From Acidobacteriota bacterium (GTDB lineage: Bacteria; Acidobacteriota; Thermoanaerobaculia; Multivoradales; JBCCEF01): 64,000 nucleotides of DNA. The DNA is taken from contig JBCCHV010000004.1 of NCBI GenBank assembly GCA_039028635.1, positions 89,385-153,384 of the forward strand, in the 5' to 3' direction. Under the pieces are notes generated by a model. The model was not told the DNA's origin. It searched no databases and saw only the letters and a program-made list of their open reading frames with translations. Positions 13,262 through 59,217 of the stretch are shown one piece after another; position 1 is the first letter of the stretch, and each line of letters opens with the position of its first letter. Made by a program: the position numbers and the translations under genes.

Positions 13262-14365
13262 ATGCGAGTGATGATCGGATGCCTCGCTATCCTGTCCTTG
13301 GCCGTGCCCGCTACCGCCAGCGTCTCCGTCGAGATGCACGACGACGGTAGCGTGGTGGTCGAAGGCCAGCGCTACGCCACCATCGAAGAGTTCCAGATGT
13401 CGGAGCAGTTCCGCACCGGCGGACACCGCTGCGCCACCAAGACGCCTGCCCAGGTCGATATCAGCCCGCTGCTCGGAGCCGCCGGAGGAGCCGACTGCAG
13501 CTTTACCTCGACCACCATTCGCCCGCAGTACGAGTTCGATGTCAAGGGTGGCACCATCTACCGTGTTCCGGTGGTGTTCCACATCGTGCGCCGGGACAAC
13601 GGTTTCGGTGATGTTTCGGAGGCTTTGGTGCTTAGCCAGCTCGACATCATCAATGAGGACTTCCGTGCCCTCACCGGCACGCCCGGTGCGCCGGGCGTCG
13701 ACACCGGCTTCGAGTTCTACCTGCCGGACACCGATCCGGACGGATTCCCGACCACCGGCATCTACTTCTACAACAACGATGACTGGTTCTCGGATCCCGG
13801 CCCGCAGGTCTTCAACAGCATGAAGAGCGCGCTGGCCTGGGACACCACCCGCTACCTGAACATCTACTCCAACGATTCGGCCGGTGCCCTCGGCTACGCC
13901 ACCTTCCCACAGAACGAGGGCGGCACAATCAACGATGGTGTGGTTCTGCTGTGGTCCTCCGTCGGTCGCGATGCACCCAACGGCGGCATCTACGACCAGG
14001 GCCGTACCGGCACCCACGAGATCGGCCACTGGTTGGGGATCTTCCACAACTTCTCGGGTAGCTGCGGCATGCCGGGCCAGCCCTACACTTCCGGTGACCT
14101 GGTGGGCGACACGGCGCCGCAGGAGTTCCCGTTGTTCAACTGCCCGGCGGGCTCCGCGACCTGCGGCTCGACGGACGACATCGACAACTACATGAACTAC
14201 ACCCAGGACACCTGCATGAGCGCCTTCACGGCGGAGCAGACCAACCGAATGCGTTGCTCCTTCGAGAACTATCGCCAGGAGATCGGCAACCTGCTGCCGA
14301 TCTTCGGTGACAACTTCGAGACCGGCGACCTCACTCGCTGGACCTCCTCGGTGAGCGGCATCTAG
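13262..14365 (+). CDS. secreted zinc metallopeptidase, M43 (pappalysin/ulilysin-cytophagalysin) family
   Basis: Signal peptide. Metzincin zinc site HEIGHWLGIFHNF. M43-like Cys pattern (SGSCGMPGQPY ... CMSAFTAEQTNRM). Confidence 0.7.
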   Translation: MRVMIGCLAILSLAVPATASVSVEMHDDGSVVVEGQRYATIEEFQMSEQFRTGGHRCATKTPAQVDISPLLGAAGGADCSFTSTTIRPQYEFDVKGGTIYRVPVVFHIVRRDNGFGDVSEALVLSQLDIINEDFRALTGTPGAPGVDTGFEFYLPDTDPDGFPTTGIYFYNNDDWFSDPGPQVFNSMKSALAWDTTRYLNIYSNDSAGALGYATFPQNEGGTINDGVVLLWSSVGRDAPNGGIYDQGRTGTHEIGHWLGIFHNFSGSCGMPGQPYTSGDLVGDTAPQEFPLFNCPAGSATCGSTDDIDNYMNYTQDTCMSAFTAEQTNRMRCSFENYRQEIGNLLPIFGDNFETGDLTRWTSSVSGI

Positions 14366-14570
14366 CAGGCGGCTGAAAAAGCCCGCATTGCGGCTTTTCC
14401 AGCGCTGCTAGGTTTTTTCGAGAGGGGCTCCGCGCCCCTGACTGCGCGTCCCGCTCCGGCCCAAGAAGCGCGGTTCTTGGGCCTCCTCTCCCGTCGCGGC
14501 GGCTGCGCCGCCGCCGGGCCCTCTCGGGCCCGGTAGCAGGCTGCTGACGAGTTTTTCAGTGGCCTGCTAG
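14362..14570 (+). mobile_element. MITE-like inverted-repeat element, family A copy 1 (CTAG termini)
   Basis: Begins CTAGCAGGCGGCTGAAAAAGCCCGC and ends GTTTTTCAGTGGCCTGCTAG (terminal inverted repeats). It has internal hairpins and a second copy at 17252-17510. Its first CTAG supplies the TAG stop of the M43 gene. Confidence 0.55.
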
Positions 14571-14611
14571 CAGACCGTCCAAAGAGTCCGCTTCGCGGAT
14601 TTCTCGATCGT

Positions 14612-14655
14612 GTTTTCTGGACGAGCCCTCCTGCGGGAGGGCTCGTTGCGTTTTG
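14612..14655. terminator. putative bidirectional rho-independent terminator between convergent genes
   Basis: GC hairpin GAGCCCTCCtgcgGGAGGGCTC with TTTT on the + side and a TTTTCT complement on the other side. Lies between the M43 gene (+) and paralog P1 (-). Confidence 0.45.
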
Positions 14656-14685
14656 GGAACCGTCGCTTTGCCGGGATCGGCCCGT

Positions 14686-15444
14686 TCAGACCGCTGGACA
14701 GCGCCAGGTGGTCTGTACCGGGATGGAGCCCGGTGGCCGCTCCGCCGTGGGGCCGCAAAGGGCTCCGGCGATCACCGTCGGGTCGGTGGTGCTGGCGGTG
14801 GCCCGCACGACGTTGCGCAGCTCGTCGGTGCAGGCGGCCTCGCCGGTCGCCGGGGCGAGCTCGAAGCTCGAGATCTCGCCGCTGCCGTTCTCGACGTTGA
14901 CTCGAATAGCGTAGGGATTGGGGTTGCACACTTCGACCAGACGGATGGTCGCCGGGAGGCGGGCATCGATGGTGGTCAGCTCGCTCCAGCAGATGCGAGA
15001 GCCACAGCAGGCGCCGCCGAAGACTCCGTTGACCTCGGCGTCTTCGGTGAAGACATCGACGGCACGGGTGTAGCTCTCCATGGTGTCGTCGCGGTCGCGA
15101 GCGTTGAACTGAAAGGTGGTGTCCTCGGTCGGTCGAACCACTCGGCTGCCGCGGGTCTCCTCGGCGGCGATCGGGTCACCGGCGAAGACATCCGGCGACG
15201 AGGTGATGTCGACCCGGATCGGGTCACGACAACCGCTGCCCACCAAGACGCCATCGGGGTTGCGTTCACAACCGCCGTTGGGGCCCAGGTCCCAAGTGAC
15301 GGTGACCGGGTCCGCAGGACAGGTTTCCGTCGGCTCGACCCTTGCCGGCCAGGGCAGGCCGCCCCGGGGCACCGAGCAGGCCGGGGCGAGAAGGGTGATC
15401 AGTAGAACGGCGAGGGCGAGACCTGGGGTTGCTCGCTGGGTCAT
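14686..15444 (-). CDS. Cys-rich secreted lipoprotein, paralog P1 of a 4-member tandem family (unknown function)
   Basis: Signal peptide plus lipobox LLAPAC. About 10 conserved Cys. Shared motifs: CPxDPVTVTW, GCERN, GSGCxDP, GACCGxxxCW, EVCNPN, WRCP. ATG at 15442-15444. Confidence 0.7.
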   Translation of the reverse strand: MTQRATPGLALAVLLITLLAPACSVPRGGLPWPARVEPTETCPADPVTVTWDLGPNGGCERNPDGVLVGSGCRDPIRVDITSSPDVFAGDPIAAEETRGSRVVRPTEDTTFQFNARDRDDTMESYTRAVDVFTEDAEVNGVFGGACCGSRICWSELTTIDARLPATIRLVEVCNPNPYAIRVNVENGSGEISSFELAPATGEAACTDELRNVVRATASTTDPTVIAGALCGPTAERPPGSIPVQTTWRCPAV

Positions 15445-15532
15445 GACTGCCTCCTTTGGAATCGGAGGAGCGGCTGGGGGCACGCTCCTCCTCTCTCAGG
15501 TCGAGGCAGGCGGCGATTTCGTTTCCTCGCCG

Positions 15533-16291
15533 TCAGGCAGGGCAGCGCCAGACGACGTCGACGACGAAGGACCCCGGAGGGTTCGAGACCGTTGGGCTGC
15601 AGTCGGCACCGCCGGTGATCGCCGGGTCGTCGGCTTCGCCGGTGACCCGGGTGACGCCGCTCAAGGGGGGCGTGCAGTTGGCTCCCGATCCCTCCGGCTC
15701 GAGCCCGAAGGTCGACCGCGTGCCGTCGCTCTGCTCGACCGTGAGACGAATCGCGAAACGGTTGTTGTTGCAGATCTCGCTTGGCTCGAGGGTCTCCGGC
15801 AGGTCGCCGCTCGAAGTTTGCTGCAGGTCGCTCCAGCACGGTCGGCGACCGCAGCAGGCGCCCTGGAAGGTGCCTTGGCCAGGAACCTCGTCGGTGATCA
15901 CCTCGATGGTGCGGTCGAATGGGAACAGGGCGTCGTCGGTGTCGAAGGCGCTGAAGTCGATGGTGGTGTCCTCGGTCGGGTTGACGACGCGGGTGCCTCG
16001 GGTCTCTCGCTCGTTGATCGGATCGCTGGCGAAGACATCCGGAGTGGCGGTGATCACCACCCGCGTCGGGTCGCCGCAGCCGCTACCCATGAAGACGCCG
16101 TCCTCATTGCGCTCGCAGCCATCTTCGGGACCGGCATCCCAAGTCACGGTGACCGGGTCGCCAGGGCAGATGGTGGTCGGCTCGACCGATTGGCGCCAGG
16201 CGGTGCCGCGACGGTCGACGTCGCAGGCTGGGGCGATGAGGGCGAAAAGGACGACGAGGACTGGAGCGCAGCGACGAAAAGAGGTGGACAA
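15533..16291 (-). CDS. Cys-rich secreted lipoprotein, paralog P2
   Basis: 252 aa with lipobox LIAPAC. Same conserved motifs as P1, P3 and P4 (ICPGDPVTVTWDAGP, GCERN, GACCGRRPCW, WRCPA). Confidence 0.7.
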   Translation of the reverse strand: MSTSFRRCAPVLVVLFALIAPACDVDRRGTAWRQSVEPTTICPGDPVTVTWDAGPEDGCERNEDGVFMGSGCGDPTRVVITATPDVFASDPINERETRGTRVVNPTEDTTIDFSAFDTDDALFPFDRTIEVITDEVPGQGTFQGACCGRRPCWSDLQQTSSGDLPETLEPSEICNNNRFAIRLTVEQSDGTRSTFGLEPEGSGANCTPPLSGVTRVTGEADDPAITGGADCSPTVSNPPGSFVVDVVWRCPA

Positions 16292-16361
16292 GGGGTGAAA
16301 TCTCCGTGAGTTGAAGATCAGGGGCCGAGAACGGGTCGGCCGGCTTCGGCGAAGGCCACTG

Positions 16362-17123
16362 CTAGGGACTCGGGCATCTCCAGGTGGAGATCACCGGAAT
16401 CGGGGCCGGTGGGTTCTGGATCGTCGGACTGCAGATCGCGCCGGCGGTGAGCGAGGGGTCTGATGCACTGGCGGTGATCTGCGAGACGTTGCGCAACTCG
16501 CCGGTGCAGTCGGGATCGCCGCCGGCGGCCTGGAGATCGAAGTTCGAGATGCCACCGTCGTTGGCTTCCACGACCAGACGGATTCCGAAAGAGTTGGGGT
16601 TGCAGACCTCGACCAGTCGGATGGTGGCCGGCAGGGTGGGATTGCTGCCGGAAATGGGAATCCAGCACAGGGTCGAGCCGCAGCAGGCGCCACCGAAGCC
16701 GTCGTTCAGCACCTGATCTTCGGTGATGACGTCGACCGAGTGACTGTAGCTCGGCAGGGTGTCGTCGCGGTCCGAGGCCATGAAGTCGAAGGTGGTGTCG
16801 GCGCTCGGATTGACCACCCGAGTGCCGGCGGTTTCGGCCGAGGCGATCGGGTCGGCGGCGAAAACGTCCGGTGTCGAGGTGATGGTGACGCGGGTCGGGT
16901 CGCTGCAGCCGCTGCCCATCAAGACCCCCTCGGCATTGCGTTCGCAGCCGCCGTCCGGGCCGGCGTTCCAGGTCACCGTCACCGAATCGCCGGGACAGAT
17001 GATGGTCGGCTCGACGGAGGTCGACCAGCCGATTCCGGTGCGGTTGAGGAGGCAGGCCGGGGCGAGTAGGGCGATGGAGATGGCGGCGAAGGCCGTCGAG
17101 GCGCGCAGGGTGATAGTTCGCAT
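16362..17123 (-). CDS. Cys-rich secreted lipoprotein, paralog P3
   Basis: 254 aa from the internal ATG (MRTITLRAS..LLAPAC). Closest to P1 (LPATIRLVEVCNPN is identical). The upstream extension of the ORF is non-coding. Confidence 0.7.
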   Translation of the reverse strand: MRTITLRASTAFAAISIALLAPACLLNRTGIGWSTSVEPTIICPGDSVTVTWNAGPDGGCERNAEGVLMGSGCSDPTRVTITSTPDVFAADPIASAETAGTRVVNPSADTTFDFMASDRDDTLPSYSHSVDVITEDQVLNDGFGGACCGSTLCWIPISGSNPTLPATIRLVEVCNPNSFGIRLVVEANDGGISNFDLQAAGGDPDCTGELRNVSQITASASDPSLTAGAICSPTIQNPPAPIPVISTWRCPSP

Positions 17124-17251
17124 GATTGGCCTCCTGGATGTTGGGCGGAGGACGAGCGAGATCTCGCTCGGACGGAAGGATTTGATAGCTGTGTAGCAAT
17201 ATCTTACCAGGCCTTTCCAAGGAGGTTGAACTTGCCTAGGGAGCGAGGCGG

Positions 17252-17510
17252 CTAGCAGGCTGCTGAAAAAAGCCCGCTTCGCGACTTTTCCAACGCTGCT
17301 AGCTGTTTGTTTCAGGGGCGCCCGGCGAGGGGGCTGAGCGCCTCCTCGCCTGCGCGGCCCGGCCCGAAAAAGTGCGATCTTCGGCGGCCCGCGTAGGGGC
17401 TCACCCCGTCCAGGGCGGCCCCGTCTCACGGCTTCGCCGCCGGGCCGGGGGCGCCCAGCCCTCTCGGGCCCGGGAGCAGGTTGCCGATGGGTTTTTCAGT
17501 AACCTGTTAG
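17252..17510 (+). mobile_element. MITE-like inverted-repeat element, family A copy 2
   Basis: CTAGCAGGCTGCTGAAAAAAGCCCGC ... GTTTTTCAGTAACCTGTTAG. Same termini and internal blocks as copy 1, with a roughly 50 bp longer GC-rich interior. Its last bases supply the TAA stop of P4. It sits in the promoter region of P3. Confidence 0.55.
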
Positions 17511-18265
17511 GAGCAGGACCAGGTTTCGAGAACTCGGAACGGCCGCGGGGGAACGGCGAGCACGCCGGAGCATCCGGAACCCGCGGTGACGGTTGCGGAG
17601 CGCGTGCTCCCGGAGACCTGGCGCACGACCCCATCGAGCGCTCCTGTGCAGGCCGATTCGTCGCCGGCGGCGCCGAGGTCGAAGGTGCGAATGCCACCGT
17701 CCGTCGCGACCGATACGGTGACCCGAAAGTCGTTGGGATTGCACAGCTCGATGAGCTCGGCGGTCTCAGGAATCCAGGATTTGTCGAGGTCGAGCTGTTG
17801 CCAGCTTGGCCGCCGGCCATCGCAAATGCCATAGAACCAGCCGCTGTCGATGTTCGCTTCGGTCATCACCGACACGACGTGGTTGAGCGGCCCGACGGTG
17901 TCGTTGCGTCCGCTGGCGGTGAAGCTGATCGAGGTGTTCTCGACCGGCCGGATGGTGCGACTGCCGGCCGTTTCGCGCGGGTCGATCGGATCGGCTGTGA
18001 AGACATCTGGGGTGGAGCGAACGGCGATGCGGGTCGGATGGCCGCAATTGGCGGGACCGCCGACGAATTCGCCCGCTGCGTTGCGGCGACAGCCGCTCCA
18101 CGGTCCAGCATTCCAGGTGACCGTGACCTCATCCCCTGGGCAGATCAGAGTCGGTTCGACCTCGGATTGCCAGGTATTCGGTGGCGAGGGTGGGGCGAGA
18201 AAGCAGGCCGGGGCGGTAAGGCTCAGGGCGAGAGCTGAGAGTGCAAGCAGGTTTCCACGAGACAT
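17507..18265 (-). CDS. Cys-rich secreted lipoprotein, paralog P4 (most divergent)
   Basis: 252 aa from MSRGNLLALSALALSLTAPAC. Retains ICPGDEVTVTWNAGP, ELCNPN and TWSCS but has lost the GACCG block (GICDG instead). Confidence 0.65.
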   Translation of the reverse strand: MSRGNLLALSALALSLTAPACFLAPPSPPNTWQSEVEPTLICPGDEVTVTWNAGPWSGCRRNAAGEFVGGPANCGHPTRIAVRSTPDVFTADPIDPRETAGSRTIRPVENTSISFTASGRNDTVGPLNHVVSVMTEANIDSGWFYGICDGRRPSWQQLDLDKSWIPETAELIELCNPNDFRVTVSVATDGGIRTFDLGAAGDESACTGALDGVVRQVSGSTRSATVTAGSGCSGVLAVPPRPFRVLETWSCS

Positions 18266-18500
18266 GGGGGCTCCTTCGGGATCGCGTCCGCTCGGCGGAT
18301 CTATTGGATCGGGAATCTGTCTCTTTCGGCGCAGCGCCGCATCGCCTGACCAGGCGACCACCGGTGAGCTGGAAGAGCAGAACGCTTTTGGGGACGGTCG
18401 TCGAGGCTGCCGGTGCGTTACTGGATACGATGCGCCGGAACTGGGCAGGGGGGTGGGGAACCCCCCTGGACGAAGCTACCTGCTGAGAGGGGCTCGGCGG

Positions 18501-18875
18501 TCAGCCAGCCGGCGGCTGGAAGAGTGCGAAGGGCGCCCCGGCGGGGTCCTTGACGACGCAATAGCGGCCGTGCTCGCCCATGTCCTTGGGGCCGGCGACG
18601 ATCTCGCCGCCGCGCGCCCGGCAGGCGGCGAGGCTGGCATCGAGGTCGGCGACGTTGATGTAGATCAGCCAGGCGGCCGGCAGTCCGGTGTTGCCGCCGC
18701 GGGCGTGGCAGACTCCGGCCACCGGCTCGCCGCTGGCGTTCATGTTGAAGTCGCAGTACTCGCCCATGTCGACATCGCTGGGCTCCCAGCCCACCACCGC
18801 CTGGTAGAAGTCCCGAACCTCTTCGGTGTTGTCGATCGTCAGGTCGATCCAACCGATCTTGCCGATGTCGCTCAT
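18501..18875 (-). CDS. VOC/glyoxalase-bleomycin resistance family protein
   Basis: 124 aa from MSDIGKIGWIDLTIDN, preceded by a GGAGGAGAAGG RBS. Has the VOC fold pattern (DFYQAVVGWEP ... PFALFQPPAG). Confidence 0.6.
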   Translation of the reverse strand: MSDIGKIGWIDLTIDNTEEVRDFYQAVVGWEPSDVDMGEYCDFNMNASGEPVAGVCHARGGNTGLPAAWLIYINVADLDASLAACRARGGEIVAGPKDMGEHGRYCVVKDPAGAPFALFQPPAG

Positions 18876-23236: not shown

Positions 23237-24163
23237 ATGAAACGCATCGCGCTATCCACGTTGATACTCGCCGGCCTCGCTATGGGCGGAGCGGTTTGGG
23301 CGCAGGATGATGAGCACCGGGTGGTGGTGATCAGCCAGAACGTCGAGATCACCGAAGACGACGAGGGCGTGATCGACTGCCGGGCGATCTCCGTCAGCGA
23401 CGGCGCCGAGCAGGAGCTGCGCTGCGAGCTGCGCGAGGGCAGCGATGGCCTGACCCGCGCGGTGTTCTTCAATGCTCAGGGCGAAGAGGTCGAGATCGAG
23501 GGTGAGTCCAAGCTCAACTGGCTGACCCAGAGCCTGCGCAATCGGCCGCTGATTCTCGGCGATCACTCGAGCCACGATCAGCGCTTCGACCTGCAGATTT
23601 TCGGGCTCGACGAGCCCGGCAAGCCGCGGGGCTTCCTCGGCCTGCGTCTCACCGACCTGACGCCGGAGCTGCGACGCTTCTTCGGAGTCGCCGAGACCGC
23701 CGGGGTTCTGGTCGCCCAGGTGACGCCCGGCGGGCCCGCCGATCGCGCCGGCGTGCGCGTGGGAGACGTGCTGACGGCCCTCGACGGCAAGGATGTGGTG
23801 GCGAGCCGCGACCTGCGTCGCCTGGTGCGGGCCTATCAGGAAGGGGATCCGGTGGTGCTCGAGATCTACCGCGACCGGCGCCTCCAGAAGGTCACCGCCG
23901 AGATCACTCTGCGGGCCGTGCCCGAAGCCGACATTCGGCAGTTCCTCTGGCGATCACAGCAGGATGCCGGGGACGCCAGCGGCAACGCCTTCACCTACCG
24001 CCTCGACTCGGGCGGTGCCGCTGCGGCCATCGTCGATCTCCAGAAGACCCTCGAACGTGGCGAGGGCCTCTTCCCGCAGCCGTCTTGCGGACCCCTGGAG
24101 AAGCGTCTCGAGGAGCTCGAAAAGAAAATCCTCGAGCTCTCGCAGCGGCTCGAAGGCCGCTGA
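23237..24163 (+). CDS. secreted PDZ domain-containing protein
   Basis: Signal peptide MKRIALSTLILAGLAMGGAVWA. PDZ block (GFLGLRLTDLTPELRRFFGVAETAGVLVAQVTPGGPADRAGVRVGDVLTALDGKDV). Confidence 0.6.
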   Translation: MKRIALSTLILAGLAMGGAVWAQDDEHRVVVISQNVEITEDDEGVIDCRAISVSDGAEQELRCELREGSDGLTRAVFFNAQGEEVEIEGESKLNWLTQSLRNRPLILGDHSSHDQRFDLQIFGLDEPGKPRGFLGLRLTDLTPELRRFFGVAETAGVLVAQVTPGGPADRAGVRVGDVLTALDGKDVVASRDLRRLVRAYQEGDPVVLEIYRDRRLQKVTAEITLRAVPEADIRQFLWRSQQDAGDASGNAFTYRLDSGGAAAAIVDLQKTLERGEGLFPQPSCGPLEKRLEELEKKILELSQRLEGR

Positions 24164-51298: not shown

Positions 51299-51482
51299 CT
51301 AGCCCGGCCTTCTCACGAGGTTTCCTGGCGAGAGGCCGTAGGTTCTTGAAGATGCAAGGCATCCGTCGCTGCCACGACGCAGCCGTACTCGATGTACTGC
51401 GAGGAGAGCAGGCGACGGATAACGCAGCAGATTCTGGGACATACGGACGCGCAGCGGAAAGCTCGTGAGAAGGGCGGGCTAG
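51299..51482 (-). mobile_element. MITE-like inverted-repeat element, family B copy 1 (inverted relative to copies 2 and 3)
   Basis: CTAGCCCGGCCTTCTCACGAG ... CTCGTGAGAAGGGCGGGCTAG, a 20-21 bp TIR. About 90% identical to 53481-53663 and 57839-58027. The terminal CTAG supplies the stop of the small membrane ORF. It sits in the promoter of the globin gene. Confidence 0.6.
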
Positions 51483-53463: not shown

Positions 53464-53480
53464 GGCGTTCCCCGGAGGAT

Positions 53481-53663
53481 TAGCCCGTCCTTCTCACGAG
53501 CTTTCCGCTGCGCGTCCGTATGTCCTCGAATCTGCTGCGTTATCCGTCGTCTGCTCTCCTCGCAGTACGTCGAGTACGGCGGCGTCGTGGCAGCGCCGGA
53601 TGCCTTGCATCTTCAAGAACCTACGGCCTCTCGCGAGGAAACCTCGGGAGAAGGCCGGGTTAG
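53481..53663 (+). mobile_element. MITE-like inverted-repeat element, family B copy 2
   Basis: TAGCCCGTCCTTCTCACGAGC ... ACCTCGGGAGAAGGCCGGGTTAG. Has the internal hairpin CCGTCG..CGACGG. Confidence 0.6.
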
Positions 53664-57841: not shown

Positions 57842-58027
57842 CCCTCGCCCGTCCTTCTCACCAGCTTTCCGCTGCGAGTCCGTAGGTCCCCGAATCTGCT
57901 GCGTTATCCGTCGCTTGCTCTCCTCGCAGTACGTCGAGTACGGCAGCGTCGTGGCAGCGACGGATGCCTTGCATCTTCAAGAATCTACGGCCTCTCGCCA
58001 GGAAACCTCGTGAGAAGGGCGGGCTAG
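57839..58027 (+). mobile_element. MITE-like inverted-repeat element, family B copy 3
   Basis: Exactly fills the gap between convergent genes. The left TAG is the sigma stop codon and the right CTAG contains the amine oxidase stop. Confidence 0.6.
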
Positions 58028-59217
58028 AACGTTCGGGAGGTGCTCTCCAGGACTTGATCCACGGCCTCGAACCCGGAGAGGGCGGCGCCGTGCACGGTGG
58101 CCCAGCTTTCGGCGTAGGTCTCGCCGGCGAAGAAGACCTTGCCTTCGAGCGGCGAGCGGAGGATGGCCCGGGTTGCCGCGTCGGTATCGAAGGTGTAGGA
58201 ACCTCGGATGAAGGGTTCTTTCGACCAGTTCTGTACGACGTGTTTCACATGGTGCTTGGAGGCTGCGCCGCCGAAGATGCGATCGAGCTCGTCCAGCGCG
58301 AGGTCGACAGTCTCTTGGTCGGTCGCGGCCGTTGCGTAGGGTCTCGCAGGGTCCCCAACGGTGAACAGACCGAGGATGTTCCTCGAGCTGTCCTTCTTGA
58401 AAGCCGCGTCGTAGTAGATCTTCTCGCCCCAGCCCTGGATCTTATTGGGTCCGCCTTGGAGGAGGTCGGGGTAGAACCGCTCCCGGAATTCGAAGAACAA
58501 CTTCAGGCCATCCGGCATCGAGAGGCGGTTCAACGCCGCGACTTTCTCCCCGGGCAGCTCGGGAGTGAACTGAATCTCCGCTTCTTTCAGGACCGTCAAG
58601 GGGACTGTGACGATGATGCGATCGGCTTTGTGAGTCGTGCCGTCTTGCGTGATCACCTGGACTCGGCGGCCCGAAACGTCGATGGCCCGGACCGGGCTGT
58701 CGAGACGAATGCGGCCCTGGATTCTGGACGCCAGGTGTTTTTCGAAGAAGCCGAACCAGGTTGTCCGCTTGAACTTGTGCTCCGCATAGACGAGTGAAGC
58801 GAGGCGGTTCTTGCGGATCCGGCCGCCCTTCCAGGTCGAGATCCAAGGGTTGTACTTGACGACCTCGAACTTGCGACCAGCCTCTGGATCGTGCGCCAAC
58901 TCTTCCAGAATCGAAGGCGCGGTGTGAATCCACTCTGCGCCGAGGTCGATGGGGAAGTCAGCGAAGTCGGAGATCCGCTTCATGCGGCCGCCGATACGAG
59001 AGGAGGCCTCGAGGATCTCGAATTCGACGCCGCGGCGCTCGAGGGCGAAGCCGGCGGCGAGTCCCGCGGCCCCGGCGCCGATCACCAGCACCTTGAAGTC
59101 CAAGGCAGGCGTGACGCTTCTTCGCCCCGCAGCTTCCTGAGGTTGAATCCTCAGAGCAAGCTGCTGAAGGCCGAGAATGGCGCCTGCTGCGCCGCGGAGG
59201 AAGGTCCTGCGATCCAT
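58024..59217 (-). CDS. flavin-containing amine oxidase (Tat-secreted)
   Basis: Tat motif MDRRTFLRGAAGA. FAD Rossmann VLVIGAGAAGLAAGFAL..EILEASSRIGGR. C-terminal amine-oxidase block (FFAGETY). Confidence 0.75.
   Translation of the reverse strand: MDRRTFLRGAAGAILGLQQLALRIQPQEAAGRRSVTPALDFKVLVIGAGAAGLAAGFALERRGVEFEILEASSRIGGRMKRISDFADFPIDLGAEWIHTAPSILEELAHDPEAGRKFEVVKYNPWISTWKGGRIRKNRLASLVYAEHKFKRTTWFGFFEKHLASRIQGRIRLDSPVRAIDVSGRRVQVITQDGTTHKADRIIVTVPLTVLKEAEIQFTPELPGEKVAALNRLSMPDGLKLFFEFRERFYPDLLQGGPNKIQGWGEKIYYDAAFKKDSSRNILGLFTVGDPARPYATAATDQETVDLALDELDRIFGGAASKHHVKHVVQNWSKEPFIRGSYTFDTDAATRAILRSPLEGKVFFAGETYAESWATVHGAALSGFEAVDQVLESTSRTF

What the first reader, a model, noticed from the sequence alone, without database searches (positions are those of the whole stretch)
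14362..17510. Family-A MITE-like element (2 copies) whose CTAG termini double as stop codons of flanking genes
The two copies are 14362-14570 and 17252-17510. They share termini CTAGCAGGC(G/T)GCTGAAAAA ... TTTTTCAGT(GG/AA)CCTG(C/T)TAG, which form roughly 19-bp inverted repeats. They also share internal palindromic hairpins (CTAGCAGGCGGCTGAAAAAGCCCGC..GCGGCTTTTCCAGCGCTGCTAG) and a repeated CTCTCGGGCCCGG block. Copy 2 has an extra roughly 50-bp GC-rich insert. The first CTAG of copy 1 provides the TAG stop of the M43 gene, and the last bases of copy 2 provide the TAA stop of paralog P4. This is consistent with TA- or CTAG-targeting insertion (IS630/Tc1 or IS5-like non-autonomous derivatives) into the few TA dinucleotides available in a 70% GC genome. 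The elements could also act as terminators or as small structured RNAs.
Basis: seen in the sequence. Interest (0 to 1): 0.6.

Follow-up and report, generated by a model that had tools for sequence, protein, structure and literature searches.

The report
IS5-derived MITE copies at stop codons
Two short non-coding copies of a miniature transposon, related to a very widespread IS5-type insertion sequence, abut the stop codons of neighbouring genes because this transposon group inserts into CTAG/YTAR sites; this is ordinary mobile-DNA biology, not a new mechanism.

Summary
14362-14570 and 17252-17510 are two bounded copies, with 90% and 83% identity in the end modules and none in the flanks. Each has the inverted repeat CAGGCTGCTGAAAAA and is flanked by CTAG/CTAG or CTAG/TTAG. 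The flanking TAG and TAA are the stop codons of the M43 protease gene and of lipoprotein paralog P4.

A scan of 185,579 species genomes found the same end sequence in at least 120 loci from more than 15 phyla. It bounds 62 further short elements (76-279 bp, unrelated interiors) and 17 long ones (mostly about 1.3 kb). At least 16 of the long ones encode an IS5-family DDE transposase (NF033581).

A filled/empty comparison of a related IS in Sinorhizobium plasmids shows that the flanking 4-mer is a target-site duplication. This matches the known YTAR target of IS5. The stop codons are therefore the duplicated target and are not supplied by the element.

Across the family, about 40% of elements abut a gene's stop codon, against 17% of other CTAG sites.

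Verdict: MITEs of an IS5-group insertion sequence, not IS630/Tc1. A terminator role for the 5' hairpin plus T-run is plausible but untested. No autonomous partner lies in the window. This is a new member of a known kind, of low to moderate interest.

The parts
14362..14365 (.). Left flanking CTAG of copy 1 (target-site duplication). TAG at 14363-14365 is the stop codon of the M43 protease gene.
   Evidence: The TSD status is inferred.
14366..14566 (+). MITE copy 1 proper (201 bp, no coding capacity). Left TIR at 14366-14380 is CAGGCGGCTGAAAAA. Right TIR at 14552-14566 is TTTTTCAGTGGCCTG.
14362..14418 (+). 5' module of copy 1. It is the hairpin CTAG..CTAG (14362-14411, an inverted near-copy of the TIR) followed by G plus T6 (14412-14418). 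It is terminator-like on the + strand, directly after the M43 stop.
   Evidence: (-27.1 kcal/mol, z -2.85) and sequence. Any function is inferred.
14534..14570 (+). 3' module of copy 1. It is the hairpin TAGCAGGCTGCTGA..TCAGTGGCCTGCTAG (an internal TIR-like copy paired with the right TIR) plus the right CTAG at 14567-14570.
   Evidence: -26.2 kcal/mol on +, -24.4 on -; I2.
17252..17255 (.). Left flanking CTAG of copy 2.
17256..17506 (+). MITE copy 2 proper (251 bp). Left TIR at 17256-17270 is CAGGCTGCTGAAAAA, identical to the family consensus. Right TIR at 17492-17506 is TTTTTCAGTAACCTG. It lies 128 bp upstream of the P3 start codon (17123).
17507..17510 (.). Right flanking TTAG of copy 2. TTA at 17507-17509 is the TAA stop of paralog P4 on the - strand.
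13262..14365 (+). M43 zinc metalloprotease gene. Its stop codon was the insertion site of copy 1.
   Evidence: PF05572; 100% match to an Acidobacteriota MAG protein; the orthologue ends at the same residue with TGA and has no element.
17507..18265 (-). Paralog P4, a lipoprotein-like protein of 252 aa as annotated. Its stop codon was the insertion site of copy 2. P1 (14686-15483), P2 (15533-16291) and P3 (16362-17123) are its tandem paralogs on the same strand.

Best explanation
[quoted passage not shown] They are non-autonomous derivatives of an IS5-family (IS5-group) insertion sequence whose ends read CAGGCTGCTGAAAAA.

Proposed mechanism: a transposase supplied in trans binds the two inverted ends. 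It excises the element and inserts it into a 5'-YTAR-3' site, here CTAG, and duplicates that site.

In a 67% GC genome such sites are rare. Many of the tolerated ones are the TAG or TAA stop codons of genes. An insertion there leaves one copy of the target, and so the stop codon, attached to the gene. That is why the ends seem to 'double as' stop codons.

Secondary, inferred step: each end carries a local hairpin, and the 5' hairpin is followed by a T-run. Once inserted, the element may therefore act as an extra transcription terminator or 3'-end structure for the abutting gene.
For: SHOWN
- The repeat is bounded exactly at the CTAG/TTAG, and the flanks are unrelated. There are four TIR matches against 0.03 expected.
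- The same 15-19 nt end occurs in at least 120 loci from more than 15 phyla. I found 81 end pairs, including the two window copies. Of these, 64 are 76-279 bp and 17 are 1.0-2.4 kb, with 12 of the long ones at 1283-1383 bp. CTAG lies on both sides in 39 pairs.
- The long elements encode proteins of 358-369 aa with DUF772 and DDE_Tnp_1 domains. They score 236-274 bits on NF033581 'IS5 family transposase', whose cutoff is 140. Homologues lie just inside the TIR in about 25 loci.
- The short elements share only the ends. Their interiors fall into 37 unrelated groups, as expected for MITEs mobilised in trans.
- Recent mobility in the family: interiors 100% identical over 122 nt at two loci of one MAG (L007/L105), and identical IS copies at two sites of one contig (L017/L056).
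- TSD: a related IS on a Sinorhizobium meliloti plasmid is flanked by CTAA on both sides. Related plasmids carry the uninterrupted site with a single 4-mer. IS5 is reported to duplicate 5'-YTAR-3' (PMC5009759).
- Stop-codon abutment is a family trait. By my heuristic, 31 of 77 elements against 97 of 578 other CTAG sites in the same loci terminate a coding-like ORF (odds ratio 3.3, p = 1e-5).
- M43 and P4 end at the same residue as their orthologues in a sister MAG. Those orthologues use TGA and carry no element.
- A third copy with the same two-hairpin architecture sits at an unrelated locus of the sister MAG (L123:15658-15848). Its first CTAG is again a gene's stop.
- A short-read contig of the same sample ends 62 nt into copy 2, as expected at a repeat.

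INFERRED
- A terminator role. The basis is the 5' hairpin plus T-run in three of four family-A copies.
Against: - No transposase gene lies in the 64-kb window. The rest of the source genome could not be searched, so a partner IS in this organism is unproven.
- Only two copies are visible here, at 77% identity, and the middle is barely alignable. They may be old and immobile.
- No clean empty site exists for either copy. The sister genome lacks the whole 4.1-kb segment 14365-18501, not just the element.
- For a palindromic CTAG target, a 2-bp TA duplication and a 4-bp duplication cannot be told apart. The distal base of the flanking 4-mer varies more than the others.
- The genome scan required one exact CTAG plus TIR, so the family statistics are ascertainment-biased.
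- The simple terminator scan found no enrichment (4 found against 3.5 expected) and did not call the 5' hairpin.
- A native-looking terminator hairpin (14621-14646 plus T-run) still lies downstream of copy 1.
Confidence: 0.85

Rival explanations
1. The two sequences are conserved intergenic palindromes, either intrinsic terminators or 3'-UTR structures. On this reading they resemble transposon ends only superficially and are not mobile.
For: The 5' hairpin plus T-run directly follows a stop codon in copy 1, in L123 and in L121, and the hairpin is kept despite sequence change. Only two copies are seen in the window. The whole elements fold with z about -4.5.
Against: The ends equal the TIRs of transposase-encoding IS elements over 15-19 nt. 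YTAR flanks are present. Copy 2 has no + strand gene reading into its 5' hairpin, and that hairpin is decayed. The terminator scan showed no enrichment. The copies lie in non-homologous contexts.
Confidence: 0.06
2. The elements are MITEs of an IS630/Tc1-mariner-type transposon that duplicates TA within CTAG.
For: IS630 is known, from my own knowledge, to target CTAG and duplicate TA. For a CTAG target the sequence outcome is identical to a 4-bp duplication. The distal base of the flanking 4-mer is the most variable.
Against: Every long element with these ends that I examined encodes an IS5-family (DUF772 + DDE_Tnp_1, NF033581) transposase, not an IS630-type one. The Sinorhizobium copy has CTAA on both sides. 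That fits a 4-bp duplication and would need a mismatched terminal base under the TA model.
Confidence: 0.03
3. Copy 2 arose from copy 1, or the reverse, by local segmental duplication together with the tandem paralog array. On this reading it did not arise by transposition.
For: The copies are only 2.9 kb apart, in the same orientation, within a tandemly duplicated gene array with a period of about 830-850 bp.
Against: Similarity stops at the CTAG/TTAG on both sides (8/22 and 9/29 identity in the flanks). The other paralog junctions, P1/P2 and P2/P3, are 27-50 bp and carry no element. A third copy lies at an unrelated locus in the sister genome.
Confidence: 0.04
4. The elements are genes for a structured small RNA.
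For: They have strong predicted structure and an intergenic location.
Against: There was no Rfam match at the gathering threshold or at E up to 10. The interior is poorly conserved even between the two copies (58%). No promoter-like site was found.
Confidence: 0.02

Closest known systems
IS5 of E. coli and other IS5-group members of the IS5 family
   Same: The full-length relatives encode a single DDE transposase of about 360 aa that passes NCBIfam NF033581 'IS5 family transposase'. They are mostly about 1.3 kb. They are flanked by a 4-bp YTAR duplication, and IS5 TSDs show the YTAR motif (PMC5009759).
   Different: The terminal sequence CAGGCTGCTGAAAAA is not that of IS5 (that comparison is from memory, not tested). 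The window copies have no transposase and are 201 and 251 bp. The group is seen here mainly in Acidobacteriota and other soil and sediment phyla and in rhizobial plasmids.
Bacterial MITEs such as Neisseria Correia elements (from my own knowledge)
   Same: They are short (about 100-260 bp) and TIR-bounded, lie at intergenic or gene-end positions, duplicate a TA-containing target, have strong hairpin potential, and are discussed as terminators or mRNA-processing sites.
   Different: The TIR sequence and the parent are different. Here each end also has its own local hairpin (TIR plus an inverted TIR-like copy with an inner CTAG), which suggests a composite of two mini-elements around a spacer. 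No functional data exist for this family.
IS630/Tc1-mariner elements and their MITEs
   Same: They prefer a TA-centred, often CTAG, target, so they also tend to land on stop codons in GC-rich DNA.
   Different: The transposase family is different. The autonomous elements with these ends are IS5-type.
Rho-independent terminators and REP/BIME-type intergenic palindromes
   Same: They are GC-rich hairpins next to A/T runs just after stop codons, often between convergent genes.
   Different: Those are not bounded by transposase-recognised TIRs with target duplications. The terminator function here is untested, and the simple scan showed no enrichment.

Membership tests
MITE (miniature inverted-repeat transposable element) | Small size and no coding capacity | tested here: met
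   The copies are 209 and 259 bp including flanks. There was no transposase similarity anywhere in the window.
MITE (miniature inverted-repeat transposable element) | Terminal inverted repeats that bound the repeated unit | tested here: met
   The TIRs are 19 nt at 89% and 84% complementarity. Similarity ends at the TIR and flanking 4-mer.
MITE (miniature inverted-repeat transposable element) | Target-site duplication flanking each copy | tested here: met
   Copy 1 has CTAG/CTAG and copy 2 has CTAG/TTAG, with one mismatch. The 4-mer was shown to be a duplication for a related IS.
MITE (miniature inverted-repeat transposable element) | Several copies at non-homologous loci of a genome | tested here: inconclusive
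   There are two copies in 64 kb, plus one intact and one degenerate family-A copy in about 62 kb of a sister MAG. The whole source genome could not be searched. An exact-pattern metagenome scan found only a chance hit.
MITE (miniature inverted-repeat transposable element) | TIRs shared with an autonomous, transposase-encoding element | tested here: met
   Seventeen long elements have the same ends. At least 16 of them have a full-length or fragmented match to the L017 IS5-family transposase, and L055 has none. None was found in the window itself.
MITE (miniature inverted-repeat transposable element) | Presence/absence polymorphism (empty site) for these copies | tested here: inconclusive
   The sister genome has neither copy. 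However, it lacks the whole 4.1-kb segment, and its two orthologues use TGA stops, so there is no precise empty site.
IS5 family, IS5 group (as parent) | DDE transposase of the IS5 type between the same TIRs | tested here: met
   NF033581 scores 236-274 bits against a cutoff of 140. The proteins carry PF05598 and PF01609.
IS5 family, IS5 group (as parent) | 4-bp duplication of a YTAR target | tested here: met
   In 39 of 81 pairs CTAG is on both sides, and most other flanks are YTAR variants. The Sinorhizobium IS has CTAA/CTAA against a single 4-mer in empty sites. See also PMC5009759. A 2-bp TA duplication cannot be formally excluded for CTAG targets.
IS630/Tc1-mariner (as parent) | IS630-type transposase associated with these TIRs | tested here: not met
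   All the transposases tested between these ends are IS5-type.
Intrinsic (Rho-independent) terminator | Stable GC-rich hairpin immediately followed by a U-run, downstream of a gene | tested here: inconclusive
   The copy 1 5' hairpin is -27.1 kcal/mol and is followed by GU6 right after the M43 stop. The same holds in L123 and L121. It is decayed in copy 2. The consensus scanner did not call it and found no enrichment. Termination itself is not testable here.
Any curated structured RNA (Rfam 15) | Match to a covariance model | tested here: not met
   There were no relevant hits at the gathering threshold or at E up to 10.

The most novel reading that the evidence does not exclude
The CAGGCTGCTGAAAAA-ended elements may form a largely undescribed MITE/IS5 superfamily that spans many phyla. 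Its members may be retained preferentially on stop codons because they act as portable, often bidirectional, terminators: the A5/T5 tracts of the TIRs flank GC-rich hairpins. The 'family-A' two-hairpin form seen here may be a composite of two mini-MITEs whose 5' hairpin is kept by selection. It stays intact, with different sequence, in the three copies that follow a + strand gene. It is decayed in the one copy that does not.
Probability: 0.25. Interest if true: 0.4.

Novelty: new member of a known kind. Interest (0 to 1): 0.25.

Why it matters
For annotation, these are repeat elements and not genes or regulators. They explain contig breaks in short-read assemblies of this lineage.

They also illustrate a general rule. 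In GC-rich genomes a YTAR- or CTAG-targeting transposon is funnelled onto stop codons. Gene ends therefore accumulate hairpin-forming MITEs without any change to the proteins.

If the terminator role were confirmed, the family would be a widespread source of ready-made 3'-end signals in Acidobacteriota and many other soil phyla.

The end sequence is also a simple search key for a very broadly distributed IS5 clade. I did not find it in the searchable literature.

Tried and rejected
- Rfam, at the gathering threshold and at E up to 10, on the window and on eight related loci: only tRNAs and sub-threshold noise.
- Full-text literature search for the TIR sequence: one irrelevant goat circRNA paper.
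- Literature search for IS5, MITE, CTAG and stop codon together: nothing specific.
- Exact look-up of the M43 protein: not on record. The source contig could therefore not be extended.
- Metagenome scan with the family-A-specific pattern GCCCTCTCGGGCNCGGNAGCAGG: one hit, which is a chance match inside a coding region.
- BLAST of the two copies against the 120 loci: only the 24-26 nt ends match. No close relative of the interior was found outside the sister MAG.
- Consensus promoter and terminator scan: no enrichment.
- tBLASTn of three family transposases against the window: nothing.
- Composite transposon carrying P1-P3 between the two copies: rejected as unsupported. P4 lies outside the pair, and each copy has its own flanking 4-mers.
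- IS630/Tc1 parentage: rejected on transposase type.
Full report

Yes.

The search key CTAGCAGGCNGCTGAAAAA, with up to three mismatches, hits the 64-kb window four times. The hits are exactly the four ends, and shuffles give 0.03. The ends form 19-nt inverted repeats that are 89% and 84% complementary.

In the pairwise alignment (broken down) the identities are:
- first 50 nt, from the outer CTAG to an inner CTAG: 90%;
- last 54 nt: 83%;
- middle: only 58%, and copy 2 has 49 extra columns there;
- sequence outside the outer CTAG/TTAG: 36% and 31%, which is background for 67% GC DNA.

The repeated unit is therefore sharply bounded.

The stop-codon statement is also correct. The M43 protease ORF (13262..14365, PF05572) ends with TAG at 14363-14365. 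The paralog P4 ORF on the minus strand ends with TAA at 17507-17509.

**2. What is it?**

I scanned one genome per species of GTDB for CTAGCAGGCNNCTGAAAAA. The loci come from Acidobacteriota, Methylomirabilota/NC10, Rokubacteria, Nitrospirota, Chloroflexota, Planctomycetota, Verrucomicrobiota, Gemmatimonadota, Myxococcota, Binatota, Eremiobacterota, Eisenbacteria and Alpha-, Beta- and Gammaproteobacteria. They include the isolates Sinorhizobium saheli, Bosea, Rubellimicrobium, Haematobacter and Seongchinamella.

About 70 chance hits would be expected for 17 specified bases in 596 Gb. What chance cannot give is a second, inverted copy of the motif within 3 kb, and I found 81 such pairs, including the two in the window.

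Their sizes are bimodal:
- 64 are 76-279 bp;
- 17 are 1.0-2.4 kb, and 12 of these are 1283-1383 bp.

The long ones carry one ORF of 358-369 aa with DUF772 and DDE_Tnp_1 domains. It scores 236-274 bits on NCBIfam NF033581, 'IS5 family transposase', whose cutoff is 140. Homologues at 46-100% identity sit just inside the motif in about 25 loci. Relatives occur on 300 plasmids, mostly rhizobial, and are annotated as IS5 family transposases.

The short elements share nothing but the ends. With the TIRs removed, their interiors fall into 37 unrelated groups.

This is the signature of MITEs mobilised in trans by one transposase clade. Two observations point to recent activity:
- two 152-bp elements at different loci of one MAG have identical interiors (L007/L105);
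- two IS copies with identical transposases lie at different sites of one contig (L017/L056).

About 20 loci have the motif close to a contig end, with the element running off the contig. That is typical of repeat-induced assembly breaks. A short-read contig from the source sample likewise ends 62 nt into copy 2.

**3. Are the CTAGs part of the element or of the target?**

On a Sinorhizobium meliloti plasmid a related 1.54-kb IS has ends CAGGGTGTTGAAAAA / CAGGCTGTTGAAGAA and is flanked by CTAA on both sides. Four related plasmid records match the joined flanks over their whole length. I read the junction in two of them, and each carries a single 4-mer there.

IS5 itself duplicates 5'-YTAR-3' (PMC5009759). 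In my set, 39 of 81 pairs have CTAG on both sides, and most of the rest have YTAR variants.

The element proper is therefore CAGG...CCTG (14366-14566 and 17256-17506), and the flanking 4-mers are duplicated target.

For a palindromic CTAG target, a 2-bp TA duplication with a G...C-ended element gives the same sequence. The distal base of the 4-mer is the most variable. I cannot fully exclude the 2-bp model, but the CTAA/CTAA case favours 4 bp. Under either model the stop codons existed before insertion.

This fits the comparison with a sister MAG from the same sample (GCA_039030395.1). Its M43 and P4 orthologues end at the same residues, use TGA, and have no element.

**4. Why stop codons?**

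The window is 66.9% GC. It has 714 TA dinucleotides against 1753 expected, and 40 CTAG sites against about 99 in shuffles.

TAG and TAA stops preceded by C or T are YTAR sites, and an insertion there does not damage the protein.

I used a simple test on the fetched loci: an open frame of at least 80 codons with coding-like GC3 periodicity that ends in the flanking 4-mer.
- 31 of 77 elements abut a gene's stop, and 28 of the 62 short ones do.
- 97 of 578 other CTAG sites do (odds ratio 3.3, p = 1e-5).

Several elements, such as L096, lie between convergent genes and touch both stops. A second MITE-like family in the window behaves the same way.

The TSD plus TIR also contains stops in two of the three incoming frames, TAG at once or TGA after four codons. 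A gene that reads in is therefore cut short quickly.

The statistic is heuristic. It is also biased, because CTAG was required at one end in the search.

**5. Anatomy of the local 'family A'**

Each end has its own hairpin.
- The left TIR pairs with an inverted, diverged TIR copy that ends in an inner CTAG (14408-14411 and 17299-17302).
- An inner TAG/GAG plus a TIR-like copy pairs with the right TIR.

This looks like two mini-elements around a GC-rich spacer that are now moved, or were once moved, as one unit. That is inference. Mini-elements of 66-90 bp do exist, for example L091, L100, L119 and L123:1967-2032.

A third copy with the same architecture lies at an unrelated locus of the sister MAG (L123:15658-15848). 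Its first CTAG is the stop of the upstream gene. A degenerate fourth follows the PDZ gene in L121.

The 5' hairpin is followed by a T-run:
- GTTTTTT in copy 1;
- TTTTTCT in L123;
- CTTTCCGTTTCC in L121.

It is stable in the three copies that follow a + strand gene (-23 to -27 kcal/mol, z -2.9 to -4.2). It is decayed in copy 2 (-12.7 kcal/mol, z +0.9), where nothing reads into it on that strand.

A terminator or 3'-end-stabiliser role is therefore plausible. Three points keep it unproven:
- four sequences are too few for a covariation test;
- the simple terminator scan shows no enrichment;
- a native-looking terminator (14621-14646 plus T-run) still follows copy 1.

**6. Context**

The source is an Acidobacteriota MAG.

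Relative to the sister MAG, the window carries 4.1 kb extra between the M43 stop and the glyoxalase stop (14365-18501). The extra segment holds copy 1, P1-P3, copy 2 and P4.

The P proteins have lipoprotein-type signal sequences. They belong to a very rare family, with four hits in the 5.8-billion-protein search. In the sister genome they are single genes at other loci.

I see no evidence that the two MITEs moved the array. P4 lies outside the pair, and each copy has its own flanking 4-mers.

**7. Rivals**

- A non-mobile regulatory palindrome is unlikely. The ends match IS ends, the flanks are YTAR, and the contexts are unrelated.
- IS630/Tc1 parentage is rejected on transposase type.
- Local segmental duplication is rejected because similarity stops at the ends and the other paralog junctions are empty.
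- An sRNA gene has no support.

**8. Verdict**

These are MITEs derived from an IS5-group insertion sequence (confidence about 0.85). They sit on stop codons because of target choice plus selection.

This is a new member of a known kind. The kind, the target rule and the consequences are textbook. The particular end sequence, its very broad phylogenetic spread and the two-hairpin architecture do not appear in the literature I could search.

Interest is about 0.25.

Noticed in passing
window 51299-51482, 53480-53663, 57844-58027: A second MITE-like family has three copies of about 184 bp. Its TIRs of about 26 nt read (C/T)TAG|CCCGKCCTTCTCACGAGNTTTCC, and its flanks are YTAR-like. B1 has its interior inverted relative to B2 and B3. 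The right CTAG of the third copy (58024-58027) is the stop codon of ORF 58024..59217(-).
   Followed up: partly
window 14365-18501 compared with L121:11110-11148: The whole segment (copy 1, P1-P3, copy 2, P4) is absent from the syntenic site of the sister MAG GCA_039030395.1. There the M43 gene and the glyoxalase gene are 38 bp apart. The origin of the 4.1-kb segment is unexplained.
   Followed up: partly
window 14686-18265 (P1-P4): Four tandem paralogs share 43-59% identity and have a lipoprotein-type signal (..LLAPAC..) and conserved cysteines. They have no Pfam domain. Only four matches turned up in the 5.8-billion-protein search, all from this MAG and its sister.
   Followed up: partly
L121:14412-14590 and window 24149-24163: A degenerate family-A copy follows the PDZ-domain gene of the sister MAG. 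The last five codons plus the TGA of the gene form the 5' arm of the hairpin. The window orthologue has no element. Its last codons, CTCGAAGGCCGCTGA, match the TSD plus TIR (CTAGCAGGCTGCTGA) at 12 of 15 positions. This may be an old insertion absorbed into the coding end, or it may be chance.
   Followed up: partly
L034, L067, L086, L088, L102, L021, L023, L006, L008 (for example L088:1588-1712): A subfamily of about 125 nt has 14 copies in NC10/Methylomirabilia, Rokubacteria, a Planctomycetota MAG and Sulfotelmatobacter. It has CTAG on one side only, and a conserved flank (cgttttcRcc) on the other. Its interiors are 75-97% identical across phyla. There is no Rfam match. It may be a longer element, MAG cross-contamination, or horizontal spread.
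   Followed up: partly
L128:1426-2964 (S. meliloti M270 plasmid accessoryB): A related 1.54-kb IS carries, besides the transposase, a 114-aa passenger ORF. It interrupts a 785-aa hypothetical gene that is intact in other Sinorhizobium plasmids. The empty sites read CTGA where the filled site has CTAA twice.
   Followed up: yes
window 16362-16373: The stop codon of paralog P3 lies in CTAGCAGTGGCC (read on the minus strand). This repeats the first seven bases of the TSD plus TIR (CTAGCAG). It is probably chance but could be a remnant.
   Followed up: no
window 14621-14646: A perfect 11-bp hairpin (ACGAGCCCTCC/GGAGGGCTCGT) is followed by TTGCGTTTTGG on the + strand, between copy 1 and the stop of P1. 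It looks like the original terminator of the convergent M43 and P1 genes.
   Followed up: no
L127 (Logan contig SRR22824298_251118), locus end: The short-read contig that carries P4 stops 62 nt into MITE copy 2. The source MAG and its sister MAG come from the same sequencing run.
   Followed up: yes
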